From NCBI GenBank assembly GCA_963705705.1, contig CAVPKK010000004.1, positions 32,741 to 96,740 of the forward strand: a stretch of 64,000 bases of DNA, in the 5' to 3' direction. The stretch comes from an uncultured bacterium (GTDB lineage Bacteria > Babelota > Babeliae > Babelales > JABCYS01). The notes under the pieces are model-generated. The model was not told the DNA's origin. It searched no databases and saw only the letters and a list, made by a program, of their open reading frames with translations. Each line of letters begins with the position of its first letter. The first letter of the stretch is position 1. The translations under genes and the position numbers were made by a program. Below, piece by piece: positions 25,335 through 26,321 of this stretch.

Positions 25335-26321
25335 ATGACAGTACTCAACGTACAAAACCTCATCAAATCATTTACCATCGGGCTTTGGCCATTCAAAAAG
25401 CCGGAGACGTATACCGCAGTAAATGATATTTCCTTTCAGATACAGAAAAGTGAAATTCTTGGCTTTCTTGGACCAAACGGCGCAGGCAAGACAACTACAA
25501 TTCAGATGCTTCTTGGCACCATGACACCAACAAGCGGATCAATTACCTATTTCGGCCAAGATTTTGCCACCAATCGTATCGCCGCGCTCAAGCGCATTGG
25601 ATATGCCAGTGGCTATGACCGATTTCCTGCCCGTTTAACGGTAACAGAAAACTTAGATACCGTTGGCCGGATTTATGGCCTTGAACAGCCGCATCGCTCG
25701 CAACAGATAGAAAAACTTCTGAAGGTTTTTGGCATTTGGGAGTTGCGTGATCGGCCAACCGGCGGTCTTTCGGCGGGGCAAACAACACGCGTAATGCTGG
25801 TAAAAGCATTTATGGCAGATCCAGAAATTGTATTACTTGATGAGCCGACCGCCTCATTGGATCCGGATGTTGCCCATGAAGTTCGGCAATTTATTTTGGC
25901 ACAACGCAATGAGCATGGCACTTCGATATTGGTTACTTCTCACAATATGGACGAGGTAACTGAATTATGCGATCGCGTTCTCGTGCTTAAGAAAGGCACC
26001 ATTATTGCGGATGATACGCCTGAAGTGTTAGCGCAATCAACATCGAAAGTGCGCGTTCATCTGACGATTGCACATGATATTGAAACAGTAATCAAATATC
26101 TTGATACGGAAAAACTCGACCGCCGCGCTCATCCTGAGTTAATCGAAGGATCAGATCGCGCGAAACCAAACCATCTCACCATTGAATTAGATGAGCATGC
26201 CATTGCGCAATTTCTGGCTGATTTGGCCAAACAAGGGATTATCTACTCACATATTTCCATCGATAAGCCAACACTCGAAGACTATTTCTTAAGCGTCGCT
26301 AAGCAAAAAGGAAATTCATGA
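25335..26321 (+). CDS. ABC transporter ATP-binding protein with a C-terminal extension, carrying an in-frame palindromic-repeat insertion
   Basis: Walker A GPNGAGKTT, signature LSAGQTTRV and Walker B LLDEPT. Paralog of 58764-59714 but 12 aa longer. The extra segment RRAHPELIEGSDRAKP is encoded by the repeat core. Confidence 0.85.
   Translation: MTVLNVQNLIKSFTIGLWPFKKPETYTAVNDISFQIQKSEILGFLGPNGAGKTTTIQMLLGTMTPTSGSITYFGQDFATNRIAALKRIGYASGYDRFPARLTVTENLDTVGRIYGLEQPHRSQQIEKLLKVFGIWELRDRPTGGLSAGQTTRVMLVKAFMADPEIVLLDEPTASLDPDVAHEVRQFILAQRNEHGTSILVTSHNMDEVTELCDRVLVLKKGTIIADDTPEVLAQSTSKVRVHLTIAHDIETVIKYLDTEKLDRRAHPELIEGSDRAKPNHLTIELDEHAIAQFLADLAKQGIIYSHISIDKPTLEDYFLSVAKQKGNS
26124..26162. repeat. 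39-bp palindromic repeat core inserted in-frame in an ABC ATPase CDS
   Basis: CGCGCTCATCCTGAGTTAATCGAAGGATCAGATCGCGCG, nearly identical to 24462-24498. Confidence 0.7.

What the first reader, a model, noticed from the sequence alone, without database searches (positions are those of the whole stretch)
26124..26162. RPE-like palindromic element inserted in-frame in an ABC ATPase gene; same family elsewhere (24462-24498, 4486-4709, 48945-49085, possibly 43930-43996)
The 37-39 bp core has inverted termini CGCGCT...AGCGCG. It lies inside CDS 25335-26321 without breaking the frame and adds the peptide RRAHPELIEGSDRAKP. The paralogous ATPase 58764-59714 lacks exactly this ~13-aa segment. A solo copy sits 20 bp upstream of the neighbouring permease gene. 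Degenerate clustered copies form two composite intergenic elements in inverse orientation. A related hairpin module (TTTTGCGCAGCAAAA-GTATCGAAGG) lies in-frame in the N-terminal region of the HAD hydrolase (43802-44893), and it also generates the spurious ORF 4516-4737 that encodes a similar PEFIEGS peptide. In-frame palindromic insertions of this kind are best known as RPEs in Rickettsia.
Basis: seen in the sequence. Interest (0 to 1): 0.7.

Follow-up and report, generated by a model that had tools for sequence, protein, structure and literature searches.

The report
Hairpin repeat inserted in ATPase gene
A 37-39-base hairpin-forming repeat, whose core occurs in many bacterial phyla, sits in frame inside an ABC-transporter ATPase gene of an intracellular Babeliales bacterium and adds a floppy surface loop; this is the phenomenon known from Rickettsia seen in a new lineage, not a new kind of element.

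Summary
The 30-nt string CGCGCTCATCCTGAGTTAATCGAAGGATCA occurs identically at 24462 (intergenic) and at 26124 (inside CDS 25335-26321, in frame). A third full copy lies at 48984-49021 (-), and there are nested or degenerate copies at 4486-4709, 43955-44017 and 49047-49082. Chance predicts none.

The extra ATPase segment is an insertion, not ancestral. Of the 120 closest orthologs, only three have internal inserts. All three inserts are copies of this repeat. One is at the same loop and one is at another site of the gene. AlphaFold2 models the insert as a disordered loop.

The core, YCTGAG-N5-CGAAGR, is not lineage-specific. It occurs in at least 99 stretches of bacterial genomes from many phyla, with compensatory stem changes. 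It is mostly intergenic and is sometimes nested in its own loop.

Its architecture matches the "CGTC-tagged" REPs, which include Neisseria dRS3/NTS and Rickettsia RPE-4/-6. It also resembles the Ssn-related motifs that flank small GIY-YIG ssDNA nucleases. It fails the published SRM search pattern, and no Ssn gene was found in the Babeliales sample.

Verdict: a new member of a known kind. The RPE analogy is essentially right. How it spreads is inferred, not shown.

The parts
26124..26162 (+). In-frame copy of the hairpin repeat (39 nt) inside the ABC ATPase gene; encodes RAHPELIEGSDRA
   Evidence: It is 30/30 identical to the intergenic copy. It is 2 nt longer than the 37-nt solo copy in the right arm, so its length is a multiple of 3.
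25335..26321 (+). Host gene: ABC-2-type transporter ATPase, 328 aa. Intact, all Walker/signature columns conserved, C-terminal DrrA1-3_C-like domain carries the insert
   Evidence: AF2 model: pLDDT <50 at residues 262-277, between helix 249-258 and strand 280-286.
24462..24498 (+). Solo intergenic copy (37 nt) between ATPase 23671-24426 and permease 24519-25322
48984..49021 (-). Full copy of the T...A stem type (CGCGCTCATTCTGAGTTTATCGAAGAATCAAAGCGCGA), intergenic after the Mito_carr gene 47855-48823 (-)
   Evidence: (I1). The stem changes are compensatory (C-G to T-A).
4486..4709 (+). Nested composite. Outer left half 4486-4498 (CGCGCTCATCCTG) pairs with outer right half 4692-4709 (TCGAAGGATCAGAGCGCG). 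Inner left half 4554-4568 (CGCGCTCATTCTGAG) pairs with inner right half 4648-4664 (TCGAAGAATCAAGCGCG). A complete unit 4629-4647 and a reversed degenerate unit (~4569-4587) lie in the inner loop
   Evidence: C/G-type and T/A-type halves are matched and properly nested.
4516..4737 (+). Spurious ORF created by the composite (…TPEFIEGSK…)
   Evidence: no Pfam match.
43955..43998 (+). In-frame unit in the HAD hydrolase gene whose loop carries the small hairpin TTTTGCGCAGCAAAA (CGCCCTGAG-TA-TTTTGCGCAGCAAAA-TGTA-TCGAAGGGTCGA)
43993..44017 (-). Degenerate reversed unit (reverse complement CCGCTCGTCCTGTGCCTGTCGACC) forming an inverted pair with the preceding unit; read as GRQAQDER
   Evidence: read directly from the sequence.
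43880..44042 (+). Extra ~45-55-aa linker after the signal peptide of HAD hydrolase 43802-44893, built largely of repeat-derived sequence
   Evidence: Absent from the two closest homologs P0122 (65% identity) and P0123 (51%).
49047..49082 (+). Degenerate intergenic unit with the same TTTTGCGCAGCAAAA loop insert

Best explanation
The element is a short (36-39 nt) non-coding hairpin repeat of the REP type. It is not a gene-specific sequence.

Its plan is: tag (G)CTC, an 8-position stem that starts A-T/T-A and contains a tandem G.A/A.G, a 5-nt loop, a C straight after the palindrome, and, in this lineage, an extra CGCG/CGCG clamp. This is the plan of the 'CGTC-tagged' palindromes, which include Neisseria dRS3/NTS and Rickettsia RPE-4/-6, and of the Ssn-related motifs.

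SHOWN:
- One copy was inserted into the ABC ATPase gene after it diverged from all sampled orthologs.
- The frame is kept, and the insert is modelled as a disordered loop of the C-terminal domain.
- Sister copies hit the same gene independently in two other Babeliales genomes.
- Copies nest inside each other's loops.
- The core is shared across phyla, with compensatory stem changes.

INFERRED:
- The unit spreads as a single-stranded DNA hairpin handled in trans by a site-specific ssDNA nuclease of the small GIY-YIG (Ssn) type, or by whatever enzyme multiplies such motifs.
- Only insertions that keep the frame, avoid the TGA/TAA-containing frames and land in permissive loops or linkers survive in genes.
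- The in-gene copy is a tolerated passenger, not an adaptation.
- This particular copy probably came from the neighbour 1.66 kb upstream.
For: Repeat and hairpin.

Insertion rather than ancestry:
- The paralog lacks it.
- 65 of 120 orthologs are exactly 312 aa, and only 3 of 120 have internal inserts, all repeat-derived.
- P0033's insert, at the same loop, is two inverted units: CCGCTCATCTTGAGCCTGTCGAAAGATG... / ...CATCCTTCGACAAGCTCAGGATGAGCGC.
- P0020's insert is GCGCTCATCCTGAGTTTATCGAAGGATAAAAGCGC(C), 36 nt, the same clamped subfamily at a different site of the gene.

Disordered loop.

Second host gene: the HAD linker is absent from its homologs.

Pan-bacterial core:
- 25 viral contigs.
- The Y/R closing pair covaries: C-G 75, T-A 15, T-G 6, C-A 5; Fisher p = 2e-9.
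- 94 of 107 hits are intergenic, with no strong strand bias relative to genes.
- 15 of 102 hits are followed by a second right half, and 6 are clearly nested. The same nesting is seen at window 4486-4709.

Link to Ssn:
- Small GIY-YIG genes were flanked by GTCAT/CTCAT-headed hairpins in 7 of 7 plasmid-derived loci and in other loci.
- In CPR and Omnitrophota loci the CCTGAG...CGAAGG class itself sits directly before the start codon.
- That CPR protein is a full-length homolog of the gonococcal SsnA homolog.
- PMC3733652 describes the tag/stem/loop/tail plan, equates family members with dRS3 and RPE-4/-6, and reports in-ORF copies.

Local origin: the two copies are 30/30 identical and share GAAAAACT 15 nt upstream (D8).
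Against: - The element does not match the published SRM search pattern: 0 hits in the window and 0 of 107 pan-bacterial hits, while the NTS, Shinella and Azospirillum controls match.
- Its tag is GCTC/TGTC rather than CGTC, and two stem positions are G.A rather than Watson-Crick.
- No Ssn-type gene lies in the window or in ~575 kb of window plus relatives. The two GIY-YIG genes found there align with SsnA only over the N-terminal motif and have no flanking hairpins.
- The clamped subfamily gave 0 hits in JGI metagenomes.
- Density in relatives is low.
- No transposition event, target-site rule or excision product has been seen.
- Even for Ssn, the literature does not show that the nuclease copies the repeats.
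- The source genome beyond 64 kb could not be read.
Confidence: 0.65

Rival explanations
1. Local copying, not transposition. The in-gene copy arose by template switching or gene conversion from the intergenic copy 1.66 kb upstream in the same operon, guided by microhomology. No dedicated enzyme is needed.
For: The two copies are 30/30 identical. They also share GAAAAACT at the same offset 15 nt upstream and GCGCG(A)GAAA downstream (D8). My estimate of the chance of the 8-mer match at that offset is about 1e-4. No nuclease or transposase gene lies in the window.
Against: It cannot explain independent insertions of the same family at other sites and in other genomes, the nested copies, or the cross-phylum spread. 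It is compatible with the main explanation as the route taken by this one copy.
Confidence: 0.3
2. The hairpin is selected as an RNA element (mRNA stabiliser, processing or attenuation site, as proposed for REPs). The in-gene copy modulates expression of the ATPase-permease operon.
For: It is a stable predicted RNA hairpin (-17.5 kcal/mol, z = -3). The solo copy sits between two co-directional transporter genes. Pan-bacterial copies lie somewhat more often after gene ends than before starts (convergent 21 vs divergent 10). PMC3733652 argues that many REPs act as RNA.
Against: There is no clear orientation bias relative to flanking genes. There is no Rfam family. The in-CDS copy folds no better than shuffles (z = -1.4 as RNA). 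Ssn enzymes do not touch RNA (PMC11893778). Nesting and tandem arrays look like proliferation, not regulation.
Confidence: 0.15
3. It is a GTAG-type REP/REPIN mobilised by a RAYT (IS200/IS605-like Y1 transposase), or a MITE derived from an insertion sequence.
For: It has the general REP-like look, including inverted doublets (P0033 insert, HAD pair). A possible 6-nt direct repeat GACCGC/GATCGC brackets the in-gene core.
Against: There is no GTAG tag. tblastn with IS200 TnpA and RAYT sequences (recalled from memory, so this is a weak test) found nothing in the window and one hit 4.5 kb from a motif among 190 sources (189 loci plus the window). At 36-39 nt with a conserved loop-proximal core, the unit is too short for an IS-derived MITE. 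The putative direct repeat is imperfect and absent at the other copies.
Confidence: 0.05
4. The extra ATPase segment is ancestral or arose by ordinary sequence drift, and its likeness to the repeat is coincidental.
For: None beyond the fact that loop lengths vary among ABC ATPases.
Against: The DNA is 30/30 identical to an intergenic repeat, with 0 expected by chance. The segment is absent from 117 of 120 orthologs and from the paralog.
Confidence: 0.01

Closest known systems
CGTC-tagged palindromic repeats (Di Nocera et al. 2013, PMC3733652), including Rickettsia conorii RPE-4/RPE-6 and Neisseria dRS3
   Same: A short single hairpin unit. It has a 4-nt tag at one end (the paper allows TGTC or CCTC variants), an 8-9-position stem beginning with A-T and T-A, a 4-5-nt loop and a short C-rich tail. 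Units form head-to-head dimers and clusters. They are mostly intergenic, with some copies in frame inside genes, most often in an obligate intracellular bacterium.
   Different: The tag here is GCTC (TGTC in many other genomes). The stem carries a conserved tandem G.A/A.G (CTGAG/CGAAG) rather than full Watson-Crick pairing. This lineage adds an outer CGCG clamp. The host is Dependentiae/Babeliales, which is not on the paper's list. I could not compare sequences with the RPE-4/-6 consensus: the figures are not held, and the text and supplements contain none of the core strings.
Ssn-related motifs (NTS/SRM) and the Ssn family of small GIY-YIG ssDNA nucleases (Chenal et al. 2025, PMC11893778)
   Same: An oriented hairpin with a conserved 5' flank (G/C)TCAT and a C right after the palindrome. 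It occurs in many phyla and is enriched in symbionts. The CCTGAG...CGAAGG class lies immediately next to Ssn-homolog genes in CPR and Omnitrophota loci. I found the general gene-hairpin association independently before finding the paper.
   Different: It fails the published degenerate SRM pattern. No ssn gene was found in the window or in the sampled Babeliales DNA. Cleavage has not been tested. NTS is rarely inside genes (2% in N. meningitidis, per the paper).
Classical Rickettsia palindromic elements (RPE-1 and relatives; Ogata et al. 2000, as summarised in PMC10969869)
   Same: A palindromic repeat inserted in frame into unrelated housekeeping genes of an obligate intracellular bacterium. 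It adds a peptide that the protein fold tolerates at the surface.
   Different: Those elements are ~100-150 bp and encode 30-50 aa. This unit is 36-39 nt (12-13 aa), although clusters (HAD linker, P0033 doublet) reach 25-50 aa.
GTAG REPs / REPINs with RAYT transposases
   Same: Short extragenic palindromes, often in inverted pairs. A single-copy enzyme gene is flanked by its own repeats. The substrate is an ssDNA hairpin.
   Different: The tag is different, and the associated enzyme family is different (GIY-YIG rather than HUH-Y1). No RAYT was detected.

Membership tests
CGTC-tagged palindromic repeats (PMC3733652) | Tetranucleotide tag CGTC (variants TGTC, CCTC) at one end of the palindrome | tested here: inconclusive
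   Window copies have GCTC before the AT-stem. Among 101 unique copies from other genomes, 27 have (T)GTCAT and 20 have CTTGT or CCTGT. This is close to the allowed variants but not identical to them.
CGTC-tagged palindromic repeats (PMC3733652) | Stem of 8-9 positions whose first two pairs are A-T and T-A; loop of 4-5 nt | tested here: met
   ATCCTGAG / TTAAT / CGAAGGAT gives 8 positions and a 5-nt loop. The first pairs are A-T and T-A. Positions 6-7 are G.A/A.G mismatches. The closing Y/R pair covaries.
CGTC-tagged palindromic repeats (PMC3733652) | Short unpaired tail, consensus CCA | tested here: inconclusive
   The tail is CA in window copies and C(T/G/A) elsewhere.
Ssn-related motif, SRM (PMC11893778) | Matches the degenerate search sequence HGTCWYN(0-2)YYVSBRHN(0-5)WNVSBRGN(0-2)RNCYNB | tested here: not met
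   0 matches in the window, 0 of 3 window copies, and 0 of 107 copies from other genomes. Positive controls (NTS, Shinella, Azospirillum hairpins) match.
Ssn-related motif, SRM (PMC11893778) | Cytosine immediately 3' of the palindrome and a conserved oriented 5' flank | tested here: met
   ...GGAT-C-A in all full window copies. The 5' flank (G/C)TCAT is conserved here and in other phyla.
Ssn-related motif, SRM (PMC11893778) | An ssn (cd10448 GIY-YIG) gene in the same genome, typically flanked by the motif | not testable with these tools
   Only 64 kb of the source genome is available, and look-ups of its contig failed. There is no GIY-YIG gene in the window. Two GIY-YIG genes in relatives' loci look non-Ssn and unflanked. 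In CPR and Omnitrophota genomes the association holds for this core class.
Ssn-related motif, SRM (PMC11893778) | Bound and cut as ssDNA (one strand only) by the cognate Ssn | not testable with these tools
   This needs a biochemical assay.
Rickettsia palindromic elements (RPE) | Palindromic repeat inserted in frame in otherwise conserved, intact genes | tested here: met
Rickettsia palindromic elements (RPE) | Unit length ~100-150 bp (RPE-1 type) | tested here: not met
   The unit is 36-39 nt. It is comparable instead to the short RPE-4/-6 as classed in PMC3733652.
Rickettsia palindromic elements (RPE) | Sequence similarity to an RPE consensus | not tested
   No RPE sequence was available.
GTAG REP / REPIN-RAYT | GTAG tag and a RAYT gene flanked by the repeat | tested here: not met
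   There is no GTAG at either end. tblastn with recalled RAYT and IS200 sequences found nothing in the window. This is a weak test.
MITE | Terminal inverted repeats plus target-site duplication | tested here: inconclusive
   Inverted termini CGCGCT/AGCGCG are present. The only candidate duplication is an imperfect GACCGC/GATCGC at the in-gene copy, and the closest ortholog has GATCGC at the homologous place. No duplication is seen at the other copies.

The most novel reading that the evidence does not exclude
The CCTGAG-N5-CGAAGG hairpin, with its invariant tandem G.A, is a distinct pan-bacterial class of Ssn-type ssDNA motif that the published SRM pattern misses. Under this reading it has its own cognate Ssn clade (seen next to it in CPR and Omnitrophota). 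It multiplies partly by inserting into the loop of existing copies. In Dependentiae it persists, perhaps without a resident nuclease, and donates peptide segments to proteins.
Probability: 0.35. Interest if true: 0.55.

Novelty: new member of a known kind. Interest (0 to 1): 0.38.

Why it matters
- It shows that the Rickettsia curiosity of hairpin repeats living in frame inside working genes recurs in Dependentiae/Babeliales, an unrelated lineage of intracellular bacteria. The same ATPase was hit three separate times, twice at one permissive loop. That supports the view that protein surfaces filter such insertions, rather than the insertions being adaptive.
- It ties a very common source of spurious small ORFs (peptides such as PELVEG, LSLSKD, FDKLR) to a defined hairpin family.
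- It indicates that the sequence space of Ssn-type ssDNA motifs is wider than the published search pattern. This is of practical interest because Ssn enzymes are being developed as ssDNA tools.
- It does not reveal a new kind of system.

Tried and rejected
- **Rfam:** the whole window at gathering threshold, the element and a tandem array at E<=10, and 18 motif-bearing loci. No family matched.
- **Ribozyme or K-turn readings** of CUGAG/CGAAG: considered from the sequence alone and dropped. The minimal form lacks the hammerhead CUGANGA and GAAA/UH elements, and there is no 3-nt bulge.
- **Literature by strings:** searches with peptide and DNA strings found nothing. Nothing was found on palindromic elements in Dependentiae.
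- **RAYT/IS200 link:** tblastn with recalled sequences was essentially negative.
- **Subfamily in metagenomes:** GCGCTCATYCTGAGTTWATCGAAG gave 0 hits in JGI metagenomes.
- **Source contig:** look-ups with the window ATPase and P0001 found nothing on record, so copy number and strand bias in the source genome could not be measured.
- **GIY-YIG relatives in viral contigs:** only 4 loci were returned.
- **Neighbours of dispersed plasmid copies:** unrelated genes, uninformative.
- **Extended outer stems as a general feature:** rejected. Beyond the two pairs outside the core, paired fractions are close to shuffled expectation at most positions (z between -1.8 and 3.2). The CGCG clamp is therefore a local addition.
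- **Supplements:** those of the Ssn paper are not held, and those of the REP paper contain none of the core strings.
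Full report
**Observation.**
The window holds three full copies of a 37-39-nt palindromic unit. CGCGCTCATCCTGAGTTAATCGAAGGATCA is identical at 24462-24491 and 26124-26153, and a third copy with three substitutions lies at 48992-49021 on the minus strand. None was expected in 100 dinucleotide-preserving shuffles. Two of the three substitutions change the inner stem from C-G to T-A on both sides.

The 17-nt core YCTGAG-N5-CGAAGR occurs four times, against 0.07 in shuffles. 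The solo copy is predicted to fold with an outer stem CGCGCT/AGCGCG and an inner stem ATCCT/AGGAT. As RNA the energy is -17.5 kcal/mol (z = -3.0). As DNA it is about -10 kcal/mol on either strand.

The copy at 26124-26162 is codon-aligned inside ORF 25335-26321. It contributes RAHPELIEGSDRA within RRAHPELIEGSDRAKP, residues 263-278.

**Insertion or ancestral?**
The in-window paralog (58764-59714, 51% identical) lacks 12 residues exactly there.

A search of the large protein collection gave more than 7,000 relatives. The best are named Candidatus Babeliales, which places the window in Dependentiae. This fits the TLC ATP/ADP translocase and the mitochondrial-carrier gene in the window.

Of the 120 best orthologs (69-78% identity), 65 are exactly 312 aa. 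Only three have any internal insert of 6 residues or more: the window's own protein, P0020 and P0033.

Both other inserts are copies of the same repeat:
- P0033 carries, four alignment columns away in the same loop, two inverted units (...CCGCTCATCTTGAGCCTGTCGAAAGATG...CATCCTTCGACAAGCTCAGGATGAGCGC...) read as AHLEPVER...SFDKLRMS.
- P0020 carries, near the N-terminus, GCGCTCATCCTGAGTTTATCGAAGGATAAAAGCGC(C). This is 36 nt, read in the second frame as ALILSLSKDKSA. It is the same GCGC-clamped subfamily as in the window.

One gene family has thus been hit three times independently.

AlphaFold2, run on a 107-sequence alignment, gives a confident model (mean pLDDT 84.8). Confidence drops below 50 exactly at residues 262-277, which form an unstructured loop between helix 249-258 and strand 280-286 of the C-terminal DrrA-like domain. 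All catalytic motifs are conserved, so the gene looks functional.

**Other copies in the window.**
Region 4486-4709 is a nested structure, not a loose cluster.
- An outer left half (CGCGCTCATCCTG, 4486) is completed 200 nt later by TCGAAGGATCAGAGCGCG (4692).
- Inside it, an inner left half of the T-type (CGCGCTCATTCTGAG, 4554) is completed by the matching A-type right half (TCGAAGAATCAAGCGCG, 4648).
- Inside that lie a complete unit (4629-4647) and a reversed degenerate unit.

This composite creates the spurious ORF 4516-4737.

The HAD hydrolase (43802-44893) has a linker of about 45-55 aa after its signal peptide. Its two closest homologs lack this linker. The DNA there contains a unit whose loop holds the small hairpin TTTTGCGCAGCAAAA, followed by a degenerate reversed unit. 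A second copy of the same loop variant lies at 49047-49082.

Of the four intact cores, three are intergenic, although the window is densely packed with ORFs (I did not measure its coding fraction).

**Beyond the window.**
The core is not lineage-specific.
- A slightly generalised pattern hit 25 viral contigs, mostly high-GC forms such as ccgCTCATCCTGAGCTTGTCGAAGgatca.
These include Bacteroidota, Patescibacteria, Chloroflexota, Pseudomonadota, Planctomycetota and others.

In 101 unique copies the pair closing the core covaries: C-G 75, T-A 15, T-G 6, C-A 5 (Fisher p = 2e-9). The 5' flank is conserved (GTCAT in 27; CTTGT or CCTGT in 20). Beyond the two pairs outside the core, paired fractions are close to shuffled expectation at most positions (z between -1.8 and 3.2).

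By crude ORF calling, 94 of 107 copies are intergenic. There is no strong orientation bias relative to neighbouring genes, and 13 lie in long ORFs. Fifteen of 102 are followed at once by a second right half, and six are plainly nested in another copy's loop. This is the same anatomy as window 4486-4709.

In about 500 kb around orthologous ATPase genes from metagenomes there are only six cores (about 0.7 expected). The family is therefore present but sparse in relatives, and roughly five times denser in this window. The clamped subfamily was absent from JGI metagenomes but is present in the Logan assembly that carries P0020.

**What family is it?**
No Rfam model matches, and string searches of the literature found nothing.

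Recalling that such repeat-derived peptides often decorate small GIY-YIG proteins, I looked at GIY-YIG genes.
- In two CPR loci and one Omnitrophota locus, the CCTGAG...CGAAGG class or close variants sit immediately before the start codon, and in one case also after the stop. One predicted protein even reads through it as ...NPELVEG....
- In an unbiased sample of seven GIY-YIG loci taken by tblastn from plasmid records, all seven are flanked by GTCAT/CTCAT-headed hairpins. Examples are Shinella and S. meliloti GTCATCCTCGGGCTTGACCCGAGGATCC, Azospirillum GTCATCCCCGCGAAGGCGGGGATCC, and N. gonorrhoeae GTCATTCCCGCGCAGGCGGGAATCC.

A literature search then showed this association is already published. 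Chenal et al. 2025 (PMC11893778) describe the Ssn family of small GIY-YIG nucleases:
- They bind such hairpins (NTS in Neisseria; 'SRM' in general) only as single-stranded DNA and cut a few nucleotides upstream.
- They do not act on dsDNA or RNA.
- SRM-rich genomes are enriched in symbionts, including Rickettsia and Wolbachia.

Di Nocera et al. 2013 (PMC3733652) had classed the same hairpins as 'CGTC-tagged' REPs. Their plan is a tag CGTC (or TGTC/CCTC), a stem of 8-9 starting AT, a loop of 4-5 and a tail ~CCA. They equated family members with Neisseria dRS3 and with R. conorii RPE-4 and RPE-6. They also reported many in-ORF copies, most of them in R. conorii.

**Membership.**
The window element, read as (CGCG)CTC | AT-CCTGAG | TTAAT | CGAAGG-AT | CA(AAGCGCG), has the CGTC-family plan. 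It has a 4-nt tag, an 8-position stem starting A-T/T-A, a 5-nt loop, and a C after the palindrome.

It departs in three respects:
- the tag is GCTC;
- there is an invariant tandem G.A/A.G in the stem;
- there is a local outer clamp.

It fails the published SRM degenerate pattern, as do all 107 copies from other genomes, while the NTS, Shinella and Azospirillum hairpins pass.

The CPR GIY-YIG next to this class is a full-length homolog of the gonococcal SsnA homolog (34% identity). No Ssn-type gene was found in the window or in the sampled Babeliales DNA. The two GIY-YIG genes there align with SsnA only over the N-terminal motif and have no flanking hairpins.

I therefore file the element as working like, and built like, a CGTC-tagged/Ssn-type hairpin repeat. 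It is a variant class, not a proven SRM.

**Mechanism.**
Shown:
- it is repeated and hairpin-forming;
- it was inserted after the orthologs diverged;
- it preserves the frame;
- it is modelled as a disordered loop;
- it has hit the same gene recurrently;
- copies nest in each other's loops;
- the core is conserved across phyla with compensation in the stem.

Inferred:
- The unit multiplies as an ssDNA hairpin through a trans-acting site-specific nuclease of the Ssn kind. Even for Ssn, the copying step is only hypothesised in the literature.
- Survival inside genes is a filter. One forward frame contains TGA, and with the TTAAT loop one reverse frame contains TAA. Lengths must also be multiples of three: the in-gene copy is 39 nt against 37 nt for the solo copy, and P0020's insert is 36 nt. 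The site must be a permissive loop or linker.
- The in-gene copy is probably a recent local derivative of its neighbour 1.66 kb upstream. The two are 30/30 identical and share GAAAAACT 15 nt upstream (D8).

An imperfect direct repeat GACCGC/GATCGC brackets the core, and the closest ortholog has GATCGC at the homologous site. This is a hint of a target duplication and no more.

**Rivals.**
- Pure local template switching explains this copy but not the family.
- An RNA role cannot be excluded for the intergenic copies but lacks orientation support.
- REP/RAYT and IS-derived MITE readings fail on the tag, the associated enzyme and the size.
- Ancestry is refuted.

**Novelty and limits.**
In-frame REP-like insertions, CGTC-tagged hairpins and their GIY-YIG partners are all published. 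What is new here:
- the host lineage (Dependentiae);
- the triple hit on one gene;
- the finding that a very widespread core class with a tandem G.A lies outside the published SRM pattern.

The main gaps are that the source genome is unread beyond 64 kb, copy number and strand bias are unknown, no cognate enzyme has been identified, and there is no biochemical test. Negative tblastn results with sequences recalled from memory are weak evidence.

Noticed in passing
window 24447-24454 and 26109-26116: Both neighbouring copies are preceded, at the same 15-nt offset, by the identical octamer GAAAAACT, and are followed by GCGCG(A)GAAA. In the ATPase the octamer encodes E-K-L, which looks ancestral. 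This suggests microhomology-guided copying between the two sites, or a target preference.
   Followed up: partly
L093 7300-7790 and 5600-6000; L196/L201 780-1000; L229/L230 400-600: In CPR and Omnitrophota loci the small Ssn-like GIY-YIG genes sit directly downstream of a tRNA or tmRNA-like 3' end (…GGTTCGA…CCA-type sequence), with the hairpin units in between. This resembles an integration site.
   Followed up: no
L026, L060, L067, L072, L075, L086; L018 10310-10380: Across phyla the hairpin is often nested in the loop of another copy (…CCTGAGTTTA[cttgtCCTGAGTTTATCGAAGGA]TCGAAGG…) or forms tandem arrays of left parts closed by one right part. This implies a loop-directed insertion or slippage process that the Ssn literature I read does not describe.
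   Followed up: partly
window 5990-6491 vs 8299-8785: Two stretches of ~300 and ~110 nt are 85-89% identical, 2.3 kb apart, inside the two adjacent minus-strand ORFs 5263-6510 and 6744-8768. This indicates a recent tandem paralog pair or a shared repeat domain (D1-D3).
   Followed up: no
window 5199-5240 and 56239-56281: Two near-perfect 21-nt-arm palindromes with 0-1 nt spacers lie between convergent genes (I22 and I24). They look like bidirectional terminators and are unrelated to the repeat family.
   Followed up: no
window 2933-4330 and 47855-48823 (-): A TLC-type ATP/ADP translocase and a eukaryote-like mitochondrial carrier protein (Pfam Mito_carr) are encoded here, each next to a repeat cluster. 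Both are typical energy-parasite genes of Dependentiae.
   Followed up: no
window 41325-42212 (-): Three copies of a 42-nt unit lie inside ORF 41212-42270 (D7). This is an internal protein repeat unrelated to the hairpin family.
   Followed up: no
L128 9184, L131 2571, L162 4678: In low-GC (33-38%) Babeliales-like contigs, the few copies present carry the GC-rich loop forms CCTGT or CTTGT typical of high-GC bacteria. This could mean constraint on the loop or recent horizontal arrival.
   Followed up: no
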